A program made the translations under genes and the position numbers. Shown piece after piece: positions 5,662-58,409 of a stretch of 64,000 bases of DNA; positions within the stretch are counted from its first letter, which is position 1, and every line of letters begins with the position of its first letter. Source of the DNA: a virus (taxonomy: Duplodnaviria; Heunggongvirae; Uroviricota; Caudoviricetes). Under the pieces are notes generated by a model. It worked only from the letters and a program-made list of their open reading frames with translations. It had not been told where the DNA came from and did not search any database. Where the stretch lies: the IMG/VR virus record IMGVR_UViG_2778261559_000013; one strand, given 5' to 3'.

Positions 5662-8649
5662 ATGAGCTTAAGCGATCAGGTGGTAATGGCCACCAGCATA
5701 GAAACGCTGATCGAGCTGCTAAAGAACCTGCCCGATTATGGGCGGGTTTCGTATGTGGTGACAGCGAAGGGAGACGAGGTAAAAACAGCGTTTGATATCG
5801 TCGATGCCTCAGTTCTTTTGGTATCCAATACTCTGGATGGGAAAATTAATCCAGACTATCCCCAGGAACTTCAGCCGCGCGACCGGACCCGCGCATCCAG
5901 CCTTCTTCAGGTCAACCAGATATCCAAGGATTTGCGTCCTGCCCAGCTTACCGATTCCGGTTTATCCAGCCATGGCGCGCCAATAATTGGTGAGGACAAT
6001 GCCGTTGAGTCAGGTAATGGGCGGACCATGGGGATCATTAAAGCCTATCAGGACGGTAATGCGGATCGGTATCGGGAGTACCTGATTGAACATGCGACCG
6101 AATTCGGCATACGGCCTGAAAAGGTTGAATCAATGACGGCTCCGGTACTGGTGCGCCGCCGGTTAACGAAGGTTGACCGTGTTCAGTTTGCCAAGGACTC
6201 AAATATTTCTGATCTCCAGGAAATGGCAGCCAGTGAAAAGGCTTTTGTTGATGCCGACAGCATAACACCGGCGATGATGGCGTTGTTTAACCCGTCAGAA
6301 AGTGGAGATCTGCTTAGCCGCAGTAATGACGCGTTTATTCGCGGATTTATGACGCAAGTTGGTGCCACACAGGCGGCTGGCCTTGTAACTGAAGATGGGC
6401 GACCAACACGGCAACTTGTAGACCGTATACAAAACGCGATCTTTGCCAAGGCATATAAGGATGCGCGCTTGGTAAGGATGGTTGCAGAAGAACCTGATCC
6501 GGATATGCGTAATGTTCTGACGGCGCTTAATGCGGCAGCCAATGATTTTGTCCAGATGCAGGCTTTATCAGGAGAAGCGCACAAGCAGGCTGTGACAACT
6601 ATTGTTGATGGCATTGAGACAGCGGATAGCCTCGATAAAAAGGCGCTGGAGGCATTGAAAGATGCGGTAGACCTGGTAAGGCAATCGAAGGAGTCAGGCC
6701 AGCATATTACCGATGTTATTGCTCAGGGGGATATGTTCAGCGAAACGGCCCCGGAAGTGAAAGCACTCGCGTTGTTCATCGTCGCGAATAACCGTAGCGC
6801 GAAGCGTATGGCCACCGCCTTTAAGTTGATGGCTCAACGTATCAATGATGAGTTACAGCACCAGGGCCAGGCGCTGGGGGATATGTTTGGCGGCGGCGAT
6901 GTGTCGTTACAGGATATCCTTCGCCAGGTGTCTCAGGAACTGGAAAACGAAGGCATGCAAGGGATATCCGGCGGTCTTTTCGAGTCCGTTTCCGGCGGTA
7001 GTTACAACGGTGTTGCTCCGTATACCAGTTTGCTATTACATCGGGCATCCGGCATCAAAGACATTATTCATCTGATCAGGCTGCTTTCCCGCACAGATCC
7101 CCAGGATGAACAGCTTGTACAAGTGCTTGCGCATTTTGTTCGAATGCCTGTTGCCGACGTGAAAAAATGGTGCCGATTATTCGGTATCAGCAATTCGTTA
7201 CTTCGCGGATTGTTAAATCACGCATCCTCCCTTGGGCGCGACGGCTTTGATGAGATAGCGCAGGCGATAAAAAACGGAGATATGCCACCAGCTATTGACT
7301 GGTTTTCCATTCGCCCAACCAGAGTGAAAGCATTCCTTAGCGCGGCGCAATCAGCATCACCATTGGCAGAAATGGTTCAGAGGTTATCGCTCATATTCAC
7401 AGACCATACCGCGTTGGGTGATCTGACTCTGGACGAGATGAAAGAAGCCTCCATTCAGTGGGCCGATCAACAAAATGAGGTTAACTCAGACTTCTTGCCA
7501 GCATTCAGGAAGGCCGTTAGTAAAGCGGATGATGCCCGTGGAATTCTGAAGGCATTTAAGGCATTGCAAAGTCGTGTTAATAAACATGTCGGTGATATCG
7601 ATGGGGTAACGGCGGAAGGCCGGGATATCCTTAAAGAGCACGGCATAACGCCAGAGTTTATTGATGAGATCAGGACTGATATGCAGCGTGAGGTCGTATC
7701 GTCCCTGCAAATCGTAGCCAGAGCGTTGGCGGATGCTAATCCGAAGAGTGCGGCCATTGTTAACCGGGTTATTGGTGATATTGAAGCATCGGAGGGCATG
7801 GGGGCGCTGAAACTCTTCCTTTCGCGAGCGTTTAATCCTAACGGCAATATTCTCCCTGGCATTATTGGTGAGGCTAAAAAGTATGTCAGTGAAGAAGAAC
7901 TTGAGCAGCTTGACCAACTACTTAAGCGATTCTCATATAACCCGCAGACACGCTGGCAAATGAATCAGCGAAGTATGGGTTCGGTCCACGAGAAAGTGTT
8001 ATCTGCCATGAACAGTGCGATCGCAAACTCATCCGTATCTGAAGAAAAAGCTCTTGAGTGGGCCGACTCTTTTATCACAGAAGAAGTGGAAGAAGTCCGC
8101 GCTGGACAGAATGGTGGGATAGACCTGCGCAAGGAACTTGCTGATATTTATCGCCTGACCGGCGGGAAAATATCGACCTTATCAAAGGTAGTTCACCACC
8201 AGGGAAGGGCATATGCAAATCTTAATGGTGTTGTTGCTGTCAATTTGAACGATGAAAATGCAAGTGCACTGTGGCACGAGCTGGGTCATCATCTTGAGTA
8301 CAGTAACCCTGGTTTGTTAGAGAAAGCCCGGTCATTCCTGAAGGCCAATGTTGAAGGGGATAAGCCATCTTTCGTCAATATCGGTGGGCGTGGCAAGCCT
8401 GAATGGTGCTTCAGATCTCGATTGAGTAATATTTATATGGCGAAGGTATACCCGCCAGCCTCAGTAAGTAACACCGGGAAAATTCGGCAGAAATCACCGA
8501 CTATTTCCAAAACGTCAGCAACGGAAGTATTCTCTATGGCTCTTCAGTTGTATCATGACAAAGAGGCCGCTGCCGCATCACTGATGAATGGTGACGGATT
8601 GCTGGAACTGTTATTAGGTGTGGCAAAGGAGCTAAATAATGCAGATTAA
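5662..8649 (+). CDS. DdrB-like large capsid/antirestriction protein with a C-terminal HExxH zincin motif, 995 aa
   Basis: Co-operonic with darA. Contains ALWHELGHHLEYSNPG (HELGH, nt 8275-8292), a classic zinc-metallopeptidase signature. Name by synteny. Confidence 0.6.
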   Translation: MSLSDQVVMATSIETLIELLKNLPDYGRVSYVVTAKGDEVKTAFDIVDASVLLVSNTLDGKINPDYPQELQPRDRTRASSLLQVNQISKDLRPAQLTDSGLSSHGAPIIGEDNAVESGNGRTMGIIKAYQDGNADRYREYLIEHATEFGIRPEKVESMTAPVLVRRRLTKVDRVQFAKDSNISDLQEMAASEKAFVDADSITPAMMALFNPSESGDLLSRSNDAFIRGFMTQVGATQAAGLVTEDGRPTRQLVDRIQNAIFAKAYKDARLVRMVAEEPDPDMRNVLTALNAAANDFVQMQALSGEAHKQAVTTIVDGIETADSLDKKALEALKDAVDLVRQSKESGQHITDVIAQGDMFSETAPEVKALALFIVANNRSAKRMATAFKLMAQRINDELQHQGQALGDMFGGGDVSLQDILRQVSQELENEGMQGISGGLFESVSGGSYNGVAPYTSLLLHRASGIKDIIHLIRLLSRTDPQDEQLVQVLAHFVRMPVADVKKWCRLFGISNSLLRGLLNHASSLGRDGFDEIAQAIKNGDMPPAIDWFSIRPTRVKAFLSAAQSASPLAEMVQRLSLIFTDHTALGDLTLDEMKEASIQWADQQNEVNSDFLPAFRKAVSKADDARGILKAFKALQSRVNKHVGDIDGVTAEGRDILKEHGITPEFIDEIRTDMQREVVSSLQIVARALADANPKSAAIVNRVIGDIEASEGMGALKLFLSRAFNPNGNILPGIIGEAKKYVSEEELEQLDQLLKRFSYNPQTRWQMNQRSMGSVHEKVLSAMNSAIANSSVSEEKALEWADSFITEEVEEVRAGQNGGIDLRKELADIYRLTGGKISTLSKVVHHQGRAYANLNGVVAVNLNDENASALWHELGHHLEYSNPGLLEKARSFLKANVEGDKPSFVNIGGRGKPEWCFRSRLSNIYMAKVYPPASVSNTGKIRQKSPTISKTSATEVFSMALQLYHDKEAAAASLMNGDGLLELLLGVAKELNNAD

Positions 8650-8947
8650 AATCGCAGCGCCATTAGGCGGAGATGCCATTATCGAATTTGATGATAATGA
8701 AGAAGTTTCCGGGCGTTTAAGCATTATCTCCGGTGACATTACCGAGGACATGATCGCTGAAGCCATAGCTGGGGCAAATCCCAATAGCTATATGGGATTC
8801 GTTAACACCCTTGATGCTCCCGCAAGTGATGTTCTCCGAACGCTGCATCTTTACGCTGGCTGGTTTGTTGATTGGCCAGCAGTAGAGGGTGGCGATGAGG
8901 ACGACGACGATGATTTGGGTGATCATGTGGATCAGTTTGTATATTAG
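8639..8947 (+). CDS. small acidic protein, 102 aa, last gene of the dar operon
   Basis: Start overlaps the end of the 995-aa gene; C-terminal DEDDDDD tract. Confidence 0.45.
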   Translation: MQIKIAAPLGGDAIIEFDDNEEVSGRLSIISGDITEDMIAEAIAGANPNSYMGFVNTLDAPASDVLRTLHLYAGWFVDWPAVEGGDEDDDDDLGDHVDQFVY

Positions 8948-9153
8948 ATACTAACAGATCGTCTATGTGGCTAGAATCGTTCGAGTTTAGCGATTAACGG
9001 AAGTTCTGGTCGATTATGATTAGTGCATATTCATGCACAGGCACACAAAATCTGGAGATATTGATCAGCGTTTATGTATAGTTTGTAATATAAAAATCGC
9101 CTTGAACGGAGTTTGTGCGTTATGAGAATCAATCTTAACTCTGGAGTAAGATA

Positions 9154-9522
9154 GTGGACGCTTTGTCTGAGGTTTTCGTTAATAATTGGCTTCCTGGTAT
9201 CTGCACATTTTTTTTAGGTATCTTTTATTCTAATATTGTTGAAAAAAAGAAACTTAAACAGAAGTTAAAGAATGATATTCTTGAGATATTCATTCCTGTA
9301 TTTAACGCCGGAAATGAAATCTCCATTGAAATTGCTGAGAATGCTTACAGGAATATGAATGGTACGTTTCAGTTGTACAAGAGAATATATCCAGGTATGT
9401 TCAACAAAGAAGCAGAGCGTGAGCTAGACCGACTACTAAAAGACGGTTTCCTCATAAATGGAGAGGTTAATAAGCATTACTTTGAACCAACTAATATTGA
9501 GAGCCTGATTAAAAGATTATAA
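9154..9522 (+). CDS. hypothetical membrane protein, 122 aa (low-GC cargo)
   Basis: GTG start 6 nt after GGAGTAAG; N-terminal TM helix (LPGICTFFLGIFYSNIV); AT-rich codon usage unlike the flanking phage genes; followed by an intrinsic terminator. Confidence 0.45.
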   Translation: MDALSEVFVNNWLPGICTFFLGIFYSNIVEKKKLKQKLKNDILEIFIPVFNAGNEISIEIAENAYRNMNGTFQLYKRIYPGMFNKEAERELDRLLKDGFLINGEVNKHYFEPTNIESLIKRL

Positions 9523-9540
9523 CTCATTTACCACAGTTAA

Positions 9541-9565
9541 AACCCCGCTTCATTGCGGGGTTTGC
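9541..9565 (+). terminator. rho-independent terminator after the 122-aa gene
   Basis: ccccgc-ttcatt-gcgggg stem-loop followed by ttt. Confidence 0.5.
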
Positions 9566-9729
9566 ATCATGCGCCAATAAAAGCTATTTATTCTGCGTCA
9601 AGTTGTAACATCTAATCCACTATTATATATCGTTATGTTTGGCATATAACAGATAATTAAATGAATTATATCCAGATCTAATTTTATGCGGTTCTGGAAC
9701 CCGGCTACGTACTATATAATAGAAAAAAA

Positions 9730-11085
9730 TCAGAGTCTATCAAAAATAGAGCCTTTTCTCGGTACAAATATTTTCTCATACAGTCGAGTAGCGTAATCAT
9801 CTGTCATGCCTGAAACATAGTCGCAAATGACGCGCATTTTTTTATCATCACCTTTTGCTTCCTCTTGATTATATTTCTTTCGAGTTTCTGTCGGGAGAAA
9901 ACGTATTGGGTCATTTGCCAGTACATTGAATAGTTCCACAATCAGTTTCTGACCTTTGAACTCTAATAGTTGGACGTTTTCGTGCTGAATAACTTTGTTC
10001 CTAACCAGCTCAAAAATGGCTTTACGTAACTCTTCTACCGCGGCAGGAAGTGCCACTTTATAGCGTAAAATTTTACTTTTGAAATCAGAGTTCTGCACTT
10101 CAAGCTTAACGCTAGTGATCATCAGATGAACAAGTGTCCCTATGCACTCCTTGCGTAGATAACTTTCGCCGAACAGTTTTTCAGCTACATCATCGGCTTT
10201 TAGATTAAACGAGTCGCATTGGCAAGCTGCAAATAAATGGGATTTGTCCTCGAAGTGCTCCTCCCACATTTTTTTGTCGATCATCTTCAGAGAAATTGCG
10301 TCTTCAAGATCATGGAGTGAGTAGGATATCTCATCAGCCAAGTCCATAATCGTTGTATCCAGTGCTTTATATATTGTTTCCTTGTGCTTATTCAACGCGG
10401 TAGATTTTACCGTTTTGAATAACTTAACATCATCACTATCAAAAGGTTGGAGTGCGAATCTAACAGTGTTCTCCTCAGAGTCCAGGTAACATTTCGGGGG
10501 CTTAAATTCGGATGATTTAAACAACCACTCATTGCTTCTTGGCTGTAACTGGCTGTAAGCCCTCTCATTGACGACCTCTGAATAGCTTGCTGGATATTTC
10601 AGTACGCCTAAAATAAGTCTACGGGTGGGATCCAGCCCATTGGTTTCGGTGTACTTATCCAGTTTGGAGAGTATACGCAGTGTCTGCCCGTTACCTTCAA
10701 AGCCGCCATAGGATCTCATGCAGTAGTTTAGTGCGACCTCACCACCATGACCGAAGGGGGGATGTCCTATATCATGAGCAAGGCAGATAGCCTGCATCAG
10801 GCTTGGGTCAGGTAAGAATTTACCCCCCTCATCTGTATCGCGCTTAGACAACTGAGACAAGATACCGCCGCCAATTTGCGCTACTTCCATAGAGTGAGTT
10901 AGACGCGTACGGTAGAAATCGCTTTCGCCCAATCCCAACACCTGCGTCTTCGATTGTAATCTCCTAAAAGCGGAAGAGTGGATTAACCGGGAAAGATCAC
11001 GTTCATACTCCGACCTTATCTCATTCGGGCGGGTGGTATTGTACCCTTGACGCTCATACCAAGTATTTTCTTTGCAGTGTGTCAT
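9730..11085 (-). CDS. dGTP triphosphohydrolase (Dgt family, HD domain), 451 aa
   Basis: RTRLTHSMEVAQIGG and AICLAHDIGHPPFGHGGE are the Dgt-family HD motifs. Start set at ATG 11083-11085 (MTHCKENTWYERQ...), preceded by AAGGAA; the track ORF extends 33 codons further upstream. Confidence 0.85.
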   Translation of the reverse strand: MTHCKENTWYERQGYNTTRPNEIRSEYERDLSRLIHSSAFRRLQSKTQVLGLGESDFYRTRLTHSMEVAQIGGGILSQLSKRDTDEGGKFLPDPSLMQAICLAHDIGHPPFGHGGEVALNYCMRSYGGFEGNGQTLRILSKLDKYTETNGLDPTRRLILGVLKYPASYSEVVNERAYSQLQPRSNEWLFKSSEFKPPKCYLDSEENTVRFALQPFDSDDVKLFKTVKSTALNKHKETIYKALDTTIMDLADEISYSLHDLEDAISLKMIDKKMWEEHFEDKSHLFAACQCDSFNLKADDVAEKLFGESYLRKECIGTLVHLMITSVKLEVQNSDFKSKILRYKVALPAAVEELRKAIFELVRNKVIQHENVQLLEFKGQKLIVELFNVLANDPIRFLPTETRKKYNQEEAKGDDKKMRVICDYVSGMTDDYATRLYEKIFVPRKGSIFDRL

Positions 11086-11261
11086 ACGTGTTCCTTTGGG
11101 CAGGATAGAGCAAGTCGCCTGCTTAATTGCTGAAGAAAGAAATACAAATTTGTAACGCTGTGGATCTTCTTTATGCGTCCACAATCAGTAAATATTGGAT
11201 ACTTGCAAGGTGCGCGAAACACTAAAGATTGTCAATTAATAATTAACACCTCTTATAGTTA

Positions 11262-11293
11262 CTAGAAATAAAAATCCCCTGTATTAACAGGGG
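11262..11293 (-). terminator. rho-independent terminator downstream of ssb
   Basis: cccctgt-atta-acagggg stem followed on the minus strand by a U-rich run (AUUUUUAUUU). Confidence 0.5.
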
Positions 11294-11333
11294 CCTGTGT
11301 ATGAACTATTTACAAATAACTCACAAGTTAACT

Positions 11334-11822
11334 CTAAAACGGAATATCGTCGTCAAAGTCCATTGGAGGTTCGTTATTGGCGCTGCTCTGAGGTTTGCCG
11401 CCACCGCTGTATTGCTGGTGGTTTTGAGGTTGGTTTGATTGCCCCCAGCCATTTGAGGACTGTGAATCGTCGCGGCGGGCGCCGATCATTTGCATAGTTC
11501 CGCCCTGGCTGACGATAATTTCCGTCGTGTAACGTTCTACACCGGCGTCATCTGTCCACTTACGGGTTTTAAGTTTCCCTTCGATGTAGACCTGAGAACC
11601 TTTTCGTAAATACTCACTCGCAATTTCAGCAAGTTTCCCGAACAAAACGACTCTATGCCATTCTGTTTGCTCTTTCTGTTGGCCCGTTTGCTTGTCGCGC
11701 CATGATTCATTCGTTGCGATGCTGAGTCTTCCGACCGCTCCGCCATTTGGTATATACCTGATCTCCGGGTCTTGCCCCAGGGTACCAATCAGGATGACTT
11801 TGTTTACACCGCGTTGTGCCAC
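11334..11822 (-). CDS. ssb: single-stranded DNA-binding protein, 162 aa
   Basis: (M)[22 protein letters not shown]...[35 protein letters not shown]...C-terminal DDDIPF is near-identical in pattern to E. coli SSB. GTG start. Confidence 0.92.
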
Positions 11823-11841: not shown

Positions 11842-11858
11842 AAATTAATTAGAGCAAT
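11842..11858 (-). promoter_or_regulatory. C1 repressor operator (ATTGCTCTAATTAATTT, 16/17 to consensus) in the ssb/lyz divergent region
   Basis: Direct sequence match to the P1 C1 operator consensus ATTGCTCTAATAAATTT. Confidence 0.5.
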
Positions 11859-58381: not shown

Positions 58382-58398
58382 ATTACACTAATAAATTT
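58382..58398 (+). promoter_or_regulatory. C1 operator (ATTACACTAATAAATTT), overlapping an oppositely oriented perfect operator
   Basis: 15/17 match. Confidence 0.5.
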
Positions 58399-58409
58399 AT
58401 TAGAGCAAT
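58393..58409 (-). promoter_or_regulatory. C1 operator, perfect consensus ATTGCTCTAATAAATTT, overlapping the dmt stop codon
   Basis: 17/17 match on the minus strand. Confidence 0.65.

What the first reader, a model, noticed from the sequence alone, without database searches (positions are those of the whole stretch)
8950..11330. Second low-GC islet: Dgt-family dGTPase plus a convergent 122-aa membrane protein between the dar operon and ssb
Where I recall P1 carrying IS1, this element has an AT-rich insert with a 451-aa HD-domain dGTP triphosphohydrolase (motifs RTRLTHSMEV and HDIGHPPFGHGGE) with its own promoter, and a convergent 122-aa TM protein with a clean terminator. Stand-alone Dgt homologues are established anti-phage effectors that deplete dGTP. 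Carriage on a phage-plasmid suggests defence of the lysogen against competing phages; the adjacent small membrane protein is unexplained.
Basis: partly seen in the sequence, partly recalled or inferred. Interest (0 to 1): 0.65.

Follow-up and report, generated by a model that had tools for sequence, protein, structure and literature searches.

The report
Known anti-phage dGTPase cassette in P1
A P1-type phage-plasmid carries, in a swap-prone slot between its hxr and ssb genes, a stand-alone dGTP-destroying enzyme of the clade already shown to block other phages; databases and papers already record this, and the small gene beside it is an unrelated passenger of unknown function.

Summary
A low-GC cassette of 2,389 bp (window 8947-11335, GC 0.40 against 0.48) replaces the isaB-IS1-isaA segment of P1 exactly between the hxr and ssb stop codons. 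It holds a 451-aa HD-domain dGTPase (9730-11085, minus strand) and a convergent 122-aa ORF (9154-9522).

The dGTPase belongs to the validated defence clade, not to housekeeping Dgt:
- NCBIfam antiphage_dGTPase scores 571 bits against a cutoff of 400.
- It is 60% identical to Shewanella SpdGTPase (PDB 9P8W).
- It is about 80% identical to the E. coli G177-type enzyme tested by Tal et al.
- It is 25% identical to K-12 Dgt.

RefSeq already names this gene "anti-phage deoxyguanosine triphosphatase". It occurs in 64 of 5,426 complete E. coli genomes, always on plasmids. A 2025 preprint lists dGTPase as a common defence of E. coli P1-like phage-plasmids.

The small ORF is a real gene (dN/dS about 0.1) from a tiny orphan family. 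The two genes occur together only in near-identical P1 copies. They were apart in 23 small-ORF loci and 86 dGTPase-relative loci. Elsewhere the small ORF lies beside other defence genes (bSEFIR, PDC-S08, GmrSD-like, Mrr), including the P2 gpA-gpQ hot spot.

Verdict: already known, low interest. The only open thread is what the small ORF does.

The parts
8639..8947 (+). hxr, the last gene of the conserved ddrB-hxr block and the left flank of the cassette
   Evidence: The ORF is listed. It is 96.8% identical to P1 up to 8946. P1 annotates the gene as hxr.
8948..9153 (+). AT-rich leader of the small ORF, with a weak promoter-like site at 9053-9082 and a GGAG Shine-Dalgarno 7 nt before the GTG
   Evidence: GC is 0.369. 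The promoter-like site TGGAGA-18-TATAGT matches 9 of 12 positions, and the number of such sites is no higher than in shuffled sequence. The sequence is shown. Nucleotide homology to the Salmonella copy starts only at 9094.
9154..9522 (+). 122-aa orphan-family ORF with a probable N-terminal membrane anchor and a helical bundle; an independent passenger gene of unknown function
   Evidence: The ORF is listed. It has no Pfam, NCBIfam or PADLOC hit, and matches phrog_26730 of unknown function. There are 34 homologue clusters at 55-99% identity. dN/dS is 0.08-0.12. The AlphaFold2 model has pLDDT 72, with only generic helical-bundle fold matches. Only 13 representatives were found among 1.84 billion proteins.
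9540..9563 (.). GC-rich hairpin between the convergent genes; a possible bidirectional terminator with short U tracts
   Evidence: RNA folding gives -18.5 kcal/mol (z = -3.65) on the plus strand and -21 kcal/mol (z = -3.14) on the minus strand. It was not picked up by the terminator scan.
9730..11085 (-). Anti-phage-clade dGTP triphosphohydrolase, 451 aa, HD plus HD_assoc domains
   Evidence: Family hits are. It is 60% identical to SpdGTPase 9P8W, 80% to the chromosomal E. coli G177-type enzyme and 25% to Dgt. H64, H104, D105, H108, H113, E116 and D251 are invariant across 17 homologues.
11086..11275 (-). Upstream region of the dGTPase: AGGA Shine-Dalgarno 6 nt before the ATG, an isolated TTGACA at 11235-11230, promoter not identified
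   Evidence: The sequence is. No promoter-like site was found on this strand. Homology to chromosomal dGTPase genes ends at 11126. No C1 operator lies here.
11276..11293 (-). Intrinsic terminator downstream of ssb that insulates the dGTPase from C1-controlled ssb transcription
   Evidence: It is the only terminator-like hit of the scan: CCCCTGTTAATACAGGGG followed by ATTTTTATTT. Folding gives z = -3.16.
11334..11822 (-). ssb, the right flank of the cassette, with the C1 operator Ossb at 11842-11858
   Evidence: The ORF is. It is 97.9% identical to P1 from 11336. The operator matches the consensus with 1 mismatch.

Best explanation
The interval 8947-11335 is one allele of a swap-prone accessory slot between hxr and ssb in P1-like phage-plasmids. 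It carries two independent passenger genes.

The 451-aa gene is a single-protein anti-phage dGTPase of the SpdGTPase / Ec-G177 clade. This HD-domain enzyme hydrolyses dGTP to deoxyguanosine and triphosphate. That removes dGTP from the pool and starves the DNA replication of an infecting lytic phage. This activity is shown for close relatives and inferred here.

In the lysogen the gene is probably expressed independently of the P1 lytic programme. The cassette contains no C1 operator. The ssb terminator closes it on one side and a hairpin closes it on the other. On this reading it protects the plasmid-prophage and its host from competing phages. This step is inferred.

The convergent 122-aa ORF is a separately acquired, genuinely coding gene from a tiny orphan family. 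It is probably membrane-anchored. It is not needed for dGTPase function. Because it keeps turning up beside other defence genes, its most likely role is also in phage-host or element-element conflict. That role is a guess.
For: Family membership:
- NCBIfam NF041026 antiphage_dGTPase scores 571.5 bits (cutoff 400), and PADLOC dGTPase gives 1.7e-148.
- The best solved-structure match is 9P8W (E = 2.9e-158, 261 of 435 aligned residues identical). 9P8W is the Shewanella putrefaciens dGTPase.
- That enzyme alone hydrolyses dGTP in vitro. Expressed alone, it protects E. coli and depletes dGTP, and a D101A change abolishes defence. Sp D101 aligns with D105 here.
- The E. coli G177 enzyme, also validated when expressed alone from pBAD, belongs to the 453-455-aa group that is 80-81% identical to this protein.
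- The catalytic residues are invariant.

Context and frequency:
- Relatives at 68-80% identity lie in defence islands: beside Gabija-like genes in a Tn7-like element, beside an integrase at the smpB (tmRNA-associated) locus, and beside toxin-antitoxin genes.
- The same interval in other P1-like plasmids holds isaB-IS1-isaA, an OmpC porin, a Tad2-like protein or hypothetical proteins.
- About 52 of 534 matching plasmid records, and 64 of 5,426 complete E. coli genomes, carry this allele at 99% identity or more.
- The window has 17 C1-operator matches, none inside the cassette. The ssb terminator is at 11276-11293.

Independence of the small ORF:
- Both genes are found together only in 13 loci that are at least 97% identical copies of the P1 cassette.
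- 23 loci, from 9 other contexts, have the small ORF without a dGTPase. 86 loci with dGTPase relatives lack the small ORF.
- The two genes differ in GC content, 0.336 against 0.434.
- An insertion of about 1.5 kb splits the small ORF in one copy while the dGTPase stays intact.
- Homology to the chromosomal G177-type genes covers only the dGTPase gene (window 9726-11126).
Against: - No experiment exists for this allele or for its native expression level.
- No convincing promoter was found for the dGTPase, so expression in the lysogen is an assumption.
- How P1 replicates its own DNA in the presence of a dGTP-depleting enzyme is not addressed by any data here.
- Most of the 86 'dGTPase without the small ORF' loci are distant relatives (33-56% identity). 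Only six are at 68-80%.
- The two genes have stayed together in nearly all of the roughly 60 cassette copies, so a functional link evolved within this cassette cannot be formally excluded.
Confidence: 0.82

Rival explanations
1. The two genes form a two-component system. The small, membrane-anchored protein would regulate, inhibit or localise the dGTPase, in the way that CloB restrains CloA in the Clover system.
For: - The two genes are adjacent and retained together in almost all copies of the cassette.
- A precedent exists for partner-regulated defence dGTPases: Clover, where CloA is inactive alone and is controlled by the CloB product.
Against: - There is no co-occurrence outside the near-identical P1 cassette: none of 23 small-ORF loci and none of 86 dGTPase-relative loci.
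- The genes are convergent and separated by a hairpin, not an operon.
- Their GC contents differ.
- The closest validated relatives work alone.
- The small ORF is interrupted by an insertion in one copy, and lost its native upstream region to IS1 in a plasmid lineage that keeps the dGTPase.
- The match to CloA is weak and partial (89 bits), and no nucleotidyltransferase gene is present.
Confidence: 0.06
2. The enzyme is a housekeeping or mutation-avoidance dGTPase of the Dgt type that tunes dNTP pools for the plasmid or host, and is not a defence gene.
For: - The superfamily and chemistry are the same as E. coli Dgt.
- Tal et al. note that distant dGTPase homologues may have housekeeping roles.
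Against: - It is 25% identical to K-12 Dgt, with 27% gaps.
- The Dgt equivalog NF003429 scores 143 bits against a cutoff of 405, while the anti-phage model is passed.
- It is accessory: present in about 1% of complete E. coli genomes, always on plasmids, in hosts that already have dgt.
- It is low-GC cargo in a variable slot.
- Close relatives sit in defence islands.
Confidence: 0.04
3. The dGTPase mainly serves P1 itself. It might act against co-resident plasmids or prophages, or remodel the nucleotide pool during P1's own lytic growth, rather than protect the lysogen from external phages.
For: - It is carried by a phage.
- The same slot holds anti-defence cargo (a Tad2-like domain) in other P1-like elements.
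- It lies next to the Dar anti-restriction operon.
Against: - No Lpa-type or C1-type control element was looked for and found. No C1 operator is present, and a terminator separates the gene from ssb, which fits lysogen expression better.
- Relatives give classical protection against infecting phages.
- Depleting dGTP would hamper P1's own replication.
Confidence: 0.06

Closest known systems
Anti-phage dGTPase of Tal et al. [quoted passage not shown]
   Same: - Single-gene architecture with HD plus HD_assoc domains and a length of about 450 aa.
- All catalytic residues are present.
- 60% identical to Sp, and about 80% to the G177 type.
- It passes the curated family models.
- It sits on a mobile element among conflict genes.
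   Different: - The carrier is a P1-like phage-plasmid, at the hxr-ssb slot, rather than a chromosomal island or a type I restriction-modification operon.
- This allele has not been tested.
- Its trigger and its expression in the lysogen are unknown.
E. coli housekeeping Dgt (b0160; PDB 4X9E)
   Same: It is also an HD-domain dGTP triphosphohydrolase, and the N-terminal catalytic core is alignable (87.8 bits, residues 13-124).
   Different: - 25% identity with large Dgt-specific insertions (505 aa against 451 aa).
- It fails the Dgt equivalog model.
- Dgt is a core chromosomal gene; this one is accessory and plasmid-borne.
Clover (CloA dNTPase plus CloB nucleotidyltransferase)
   Same: The effector is a defence dGTPase with the same active-site layout.
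   Different: - CloA needs dTTP activation and is restrained by the p3diT signal made by CloB.
- No nucleotidyltransferase gene is here.
- The match to CloA chains (9P8S-V) is only 82.5-89.2 bits over residues 22-168.
- SpdGTPase-type enzymes are active alone.
Accessory or defence hot spots of temperate phages (the P2 gpA-gpQ old/tin locus and the P4 hot spot, Rousset et al. 2022)
   Same: - It is a fixed interval between conserved phage genes.
- That interval holds alternative low-GC cargo, including defence genes.
- The small-ORF family itself also occurs in the P2 gpA-gpQ locus next to a GmrSD-like gene.
   Different: - The location in P1 is hxr-ssb, not next to cos.
- The alternative cargos include a porin, a Tad2-like anti-defence protein and IS1, and none of them hit PADLOC.
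- I found no paper that names this P1 interval as a hot spot.

Membership tests
Anti-phage dGTPase (NCBIfam NF041026 / PADLOC dGTPase / Tal et al. clade) | Passes the curated family profile over its full length | tested here: met
   NF041026 scores 571.5 bits (cutoff 400) over profile positions 1-425 of 425. PRK05318 scores 562 bits (cutoff 383). PADLOC dGTPase gives 1.7e-148.
Anti-phage dGTPase (NCBIfam NF041026 / PADLOC dGTPase / Tal et al. clade) | At least 45% identity to Sp-dGTPase over 90% or more of the length (the set Tal et al. found enriched next to defence systems) | tested here: met
   261 of 435 aligned residues (60%) are identical to 9P8W, covering query residues 16-451. The criterion is quoted. 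Escherichia proteins of 452 aa at 57.2% identity are listed in their Table S2.
Anti-phage dGTPase (NCBIfam NF041026 / PADLOC dGTPase / Tal et al. clade) | Intact HD metal site and His/Glu catalytic dyad | tested here: met
   H64, H104, D105, H108, H113, E116 and D251 are invariant in a 17-sequence alignment. D105 aligns with Sp D101, whose D101A mutant loses defence.
Anti-phage dGTPase (NCBIfam NF041026 / PADLOC dGTPase / Tal et al. clade) | Single-gene system with no obligatory partner | tested here: met
   The neighbouring ORF does not co-occur with dGTPase relatives outside this cassette. Validated relatives were expressed alone.
Anti-phage dGTPase (NCBIfam NF041026 / PADLOC dGTPase / Tal et al. 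clade) | dGTP hydrolysis, dGTP depletion on infection, and phage protection | not testable with these tools
   This needs plaque assays and LC-MS of dNTP pools for this allele.
Housekeeping Dgt (NCBIfam NF003429, E. coli b0160) | Passes the Dgt equivalog model; about 505 aa with Dgt-specific insertions | tested here: not met
   It scores 142.8 bits against a cutoff of 405. It is 25% identical to K-12 Dgt with 27% gaps.
Clover (CloA/CloB) | A dNTPase encoded in an operon with a Pol-beta-type nucleotidyltransferase | tested here: not met
   The cassette has only two ORFs, and the second has no Pfam or PADLOC hit. The CloA chains match weakly (82.5-89.2 bits).
Phage accessory-gene ('moron') cassette or hot spot | A fixed site between conserved genes, with alternative unrelated cargo in related elements and deviating base composition | tested here: met
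   The boundaries fall at the hxr and ssb stop codons. At least six alternative cargos are seen. GC is 0.40 against 0.48.
Phage accessory-gene ('moron') cassette or hot spot | Own promoter and terminator that allow expression from the repressed prophage | tested here: inconclusive
   Terminator-like hairpins are present on both sides, and there is no C1 operator. No convincing promoter was found for the dGTPase.

The most novel reading that the evidence does not exclude
The 122-aa ORF represents an unrecognised, very narrow family of small, probably membrane-anchored proteins. These proteins are themselves conflict genes: single-gene phage exclusion, defence or anti-defence factors.

The family rides in phage and island hot spots:
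- the P1 hxr-ssb slot;
- the P2 gpA-gpQ locus;
- the slot downstream of MuF_C polyvalent proteins in Yersinia.

It repeatedly lies directly beside single-gene defence effectors: dGTPase, bSEFIR, the PDC-S08 5'-nucleotidase and an Mrr-type nuclease.
Probability: 0.3. Interest if true: 0.45.

Novelty: already known. Interest (0 to 1): 0.2.

Why it matters
The main result is that this finding can be closed. The gene is a recognised anti-phage dGTPase in a recognised kind of place, and genome annotation already says so. Two smaller points are useful:

- The hxr-ssb interval of P1-like phage-plasmids behaves as an exchangeable cargo slot. It can hold defence, anti-defence, porin or IS cargo. This is handy for anyone mining phage-plasmids for new conflict genes.
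- The neighbouring 122-aa gene belongs to a tiny, strongly conserved family that keeps appearing next to defence genes in unrelated mobile elements. It would be a cheap candidate to test.

A real biological question stays open: how a temperate phage tolerates a dGTP-depleting enzyme during its own lytic replication.

Tried and rejected
- **Partner hypothesis for the small ORF.** I tested it from both sides. I examined nine different small-ORF contexts, the 80 best dGTPase loci from representative genomes, and six close dGTPase relatives. There was no co-occurrence outside the P1 cassette.
- **Hidden dGTPase pseudogenes.** Gaps of 1.4-1.5 kb without called genes lie downstream of the small ORF in Salmonella and Enterobacter. 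I suspected degraded dGTPase genes. tblastn found none, and the Salmonella gap holds what looks like a degraded transposase (my reading of the ORF translations; not scanned against any family library).
- **Function of the small ORF from sequence or fold.**
  - It has no Pfam, NCBIfam or PADLOC hit.
  - An exhaustive profile search found only 13 representatives, none of them part of a larger protein.
  - The afdb50 library was unavailable.
- **Recombination signals.** I searched for repeats or recombination sites at the cassette borders and found only short, chance-level repeats.
- **RNA genes.** An Rfam scan of 8800-11500 found nothing near gathering scores.
- **dGTPase promoter.** None was found by the consensus scan.
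- **Frameshifted copies as evidence of decay.** Nearly all the indels sit in homopolymer runs, so they are probably sequencing errors and were not used as evidence.
- **Limits of the representative-genome scan.** I therefore added close relatives by exact-protein look-ups.
Full report

Yes. The window is a P1-like phage-plasmid. Flanking DNA is 97-98% identical to P1, P7, SJ46 and many IncY/p0111 plasmids.

ORF listing shows a 369-nt ORF at 9154-9522 (plus strand, GTG start, 122 aa). It also shows an ORF at 9730-11184 (minus strand) whose ATG at 11085 gives the 451-aa product. RefSeq and most homologues use that ATG.

GC content falls to 0.32-0.41 across 8900-10400. Computed over the whole replaced segment it is 0.398, against 0.482 for the window.

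Homology to P1 ends at 8946 and resumes at 11336. These are the stop codons of hxr and ssb. P1 itself has isaB-IS1-isaA between those points.

Three details are softer than stated:
- No sigma-70-like promoter was found upstream of the dGTPase.
- The hairpin after the small ORF is strong but has a short U tract.
- The membrane-protein call rests on one moderately hydrophobic N-terminal segment.

**2. What the large gene is**

Family models place it in the anti-phage dGTPase family:
- Pfam finds HD and HD_assoc domains.
- PADLOC's dGTPase model matches at 1.7e-148.
- NCBIfam's curated 'antiphage_dGTPase' model NF041026 scores 571.5 bits (cutoff 400).
- The E. coli Dgt equivalog NF003429 scores 142.8 bits (cutoff 405).

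The best match among solved structures is 9P8W (E = 2.9e-158). The depositors' preprint identifies 9P8W as the Shewanella putrefaciens CN-32 dGTPase. It also shows that this enzyme alone hydrolyses dGTP rapidly.

Counting the printed alignment gives 261 identities over 435 aligned positions, 60%. Tal et al. set 45% identity to Sp-dGTPase as the boundary of their set. In that set 53% of members lie next to known defence systems.

Their Table S2 lists 452-aa Escherichia proteins at 57.2% identity. These are most likely this very protein.

Their second validated enzyme, from E. coli G177, was synthesised and expressed alone from pBAD. Its first 133 residues are 99% identical to cluster P0037. That cluster is 80% identical to the window protein over its full length. 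A chromosomal E. coli copy of that type is 80% identical (365 of 455).

Identity to K-12 Dgt is 25%, with 27% gaps.

In a 17-sequence alignment spanning 57-81% identity, the metal ligands and catalytic dyad are invariant: H64, H104, D105, H108, H113, E116 and D251. D105 aligns with Sp D101, whose D101A mutation abolishes defence.

**3. It is already known**

- The 2.4-kb segment occurs at 99% identity or more in 53 PLSDB plasmids. RefSeq names the gene 'anti-phage deoxyguanosine triphosphatase'.
- It occurs in 64 of 5,426 complete E. coli genomes, always on plasmids.
- Of 534 plasmid records that match the flanks, 52 carry the whole cassette.
- One deposited phage, vB_EcoM-673R5, has it, split by indels in G6 and C6 runs.
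- A 2025 preprint on 66,856 clinical genomes states that P1-like phage-plasmids from E. coli commonly carry CapRel or dGTPase systems.

**4. The slot**

The hxr-ssb interval carries different cargo in related elements:
- isaB-IS1-isaA in P1;
- two hypothetical proteins of 364 and 262 aa;
- an OmpC/NmpC porin (also in P7);
- a 260-aa protein plus a DUF2829 protein whose C-terminus matches the Tad2-like anti-Thoeris domain (1.6e-22);
- a single 264-aa protein.

None of these alternatives hit PADLOC. No repeats or recombinase sites mark the borders. Exchange by homologous recombination in the conserved flanks is the simplest inference.

IS elements also act here:
- IS1 sits immediately before the small ORF's GTG in the pTetA_020022 lineage, with loss of upstream Dar genes.
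- Insertions of about 1.5 kb interrupt the small ORF (L105), or the region between the dGTPase and the ssb terminator (L100).

**5. Regulation (inferred)**

The P1 C1-operator consensus has 17 matches in the window, against 0.4 expected. One is Ossb at 11842-11858. None lies within 8947-11335.

ssb transcription runs towards the dGTPase but meets the only canonical terminator of the region, at 11276-11293. A GC hairpin at 9540-9563 separates the convergent genes.

This insulated layout fits expression in the lysogen, as expected for a defence cargo gene. However, the dGTPase promoter was not found, and Rfam finds no RNA element.

**6. The small ORF**

It is a real gene:
- 34 homologue clusters at 55-99% identity occur in Escherichia, Salmonella, Enterobacter, Yersinia, Vibrio, Marinomonas and Rheinheimera.
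- They share an invariant core, KLKQKLKNDILEIFIPVFNxG.
- dN/dS is 0.08-0.12 where dS is not saturated.

The family is very small and has no informative homologues:
- Only 13 representatives exist among 1.84 billion proteins, none as a domain of a larger protein.
- It has no Pfam, NCBIfam or PADLOC hit, and matches only phrog_26730 of unknown function.
- The AlphaFold2 model (pLDDT 72, pTM 0.58) is a long N-terminal helix followed by a helical bundle.
- Fold searches return only generic helical bundles.

It does not co-occur with the dGTPase, from either side:
- Across 128 fetched loci, both genes are present only in 13 loci that are at least 97% identical copies of the P1 cassette.
- 23 loci from nine other contexts have the small ORF and no dGTPase within 6-7 kb.
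- 86 loci with dGTPase relatives (33-80% identity) have no small ORF.
- Nucleotide homology between the window and the Salmonella copy covers only 9094-9521.
- Homology to chromosomal dGTPase genes covers only 9726-11126.
- The two genes differ in GC content, 0.336 against 0.434.

They are therefore two separately acquired units.

**7. What the small ORF might be**

Its other neighbourhoods are suggestive.
- **P2-like prophages.** It lies between the portal gene and gpA. Rousset et al. showed this locus to be an anti-phage hot spot. There it sits next to a GmrSD_N protein that hits PADLOC NsnA.
- **Yersinia kristensenii.** It directly follows a bSEFIR gene (4.5e-125) and an AbiV-like gene.
- **Yersinia enterocolitica.** The same slot, between a MuF_C/LPD polyvalent protein and the small ORF, holds two different genes.
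- **Marinomonas.** It follows a 5'-nucleotidase that matches PADLOC candidate PDC-S08 (1e-117).
- **Vibrio.** It precedes an Mrr_cat nuclease.
- **A metagenomic island.** It lies among a type III restriction-modification system, a RelA_SpoT protein and ArdA.
- **Salmonella.** It lies near an N6_Mtase fragment and DUF1281, ArdA in one of the four loci (L006), and an Eco57I-type enzyme.

This is guilt by association only. It is compatible with a defence, exclusion or anti-defence role. I put that at about 0.3.

**8. Verdict**

The finding is a correct reading of an already catalogued feature. The best explanation is a single-gene anti-phage dGTPase carried as exchangeable cargo in a P1 accessory slot, beside an unrelated orphan gene (confidence about 0.8).

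The two-gene-system, housekeeping and 'serves P1 itself' alternatives each have little support.

Novelty: already known. Interest: 0.2. The residual interest comes from the uncharacterised small-ORF family, and from the open question of how P1 tolerates its own dGTPase.

Noticed in passing
window 8947-11335, compared with loci L002, L113, L114, L115, L116: The hxr-ssb interval of P1-like plasmids is an exchangeable cargo slot with at least six alleles: isaB-IS1-isaA, two hypotheticals, an OmpC/NmpC porin, a hypothetical plus a DUF2829 protein, a single 264-aa protein, and this cassette. The DUF2829 allele carries a Tad2-like (anti-Thoeris) domain at 1.6e-22, so the same slot holds defence cargo in some elements and anti-defence cargo in others.
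   Followed up: partly
L119:8896-13072; L124-L126:1-3846; L128:1653-5626: dGTPase relatives at 68-80% identity in E. coli ABWA45, Yersinia enterocolitica and Brenneria sit next to the same gene cluster: a PfkB kinase/Nuc_deoxyrib_tr protein, a QueC-like 7-cyano-7-deazaguanine synthase, an Ogg-HhH glycosylase and a Dam-like methylase. This looks like a conserved guanine/7-deazaguanine-related island travelling with the dGTPase. The P1 cassette lacks it.
   Followed up: no
L123:4499-7399; L007:4106-6399; L112: In Yersinia the small-ORF homologue and a 70-aa minus-strand ORF form a constant right flank. The genes between them and a giant MuF_C/LPD polyvalent protein differ between strains: AbiV-like plus bSEFIR in one, and 277-aa plus 256-aa unknown proteins in another. 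This suggests another variable slot.
   Followed up: partly
L109:2043-10172 (IMGVR_UViG_2872653897_000001), also L110, L111, L106: An 80%-identical small-ORF homologue lies in the P2-type gpQ-gpA hot spot. It is there with a GmrSD_N/NsnA-like protein and a GNAT acetyltransferase followed by an 89-aa ORF.
   Followed up: partly
L013:4889-6396 (Marinomonas): A PF06189 5'-nucleotidase that matches PADLOC candidate system PDC-S08 (1e-117) lies directly upstream of the small-ORF homologue. This is a second case, after the dGTPase, of a nucleotide-hydrolysing defence candidate next to this family.
   Followed up: no
L118:3288-4369 (pTetA_020022) and hits H150-H155, H66; L105; L100: IS activity affects the cassette. 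IS1 is inserted right before the small ORF's GTG, with truncation of an upstream morphogenetic gene, in one plasmid lineage. An insertion of about 1.5 kb splits the small ORF at window 9411-9422 in L105. An insertion of about 1.55 kb sits at window 11281-11288 in L100.
   Followed up: partly
L001 (ON470615.2), window-equivalent positions 10756 and 10823; window 9208-9215 and 9243-9249: The deposited phage vB_EcoM-673R5 has the dGTPase annotated as two CDSs because of 1-nt deletions in G6 and C6 runs. Most other indels among copies (9 of 12) also fall in homopolymer runs of 5-8 bases, including the T8 and A7 tracts inside the small ORF. They are probably sequencing errors, but slippage was not excluded.
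   Followed up: partly
window 11842-61931: The window has 17 matches (3 mismatches or fewer) to the P1 C1 operator consensus, against 0.4 expected by chance. One is a perfect site at 58393-58409, overlapped by a second site on the other strand (58382-58398). None lies in the cassette.
   Followed up: no
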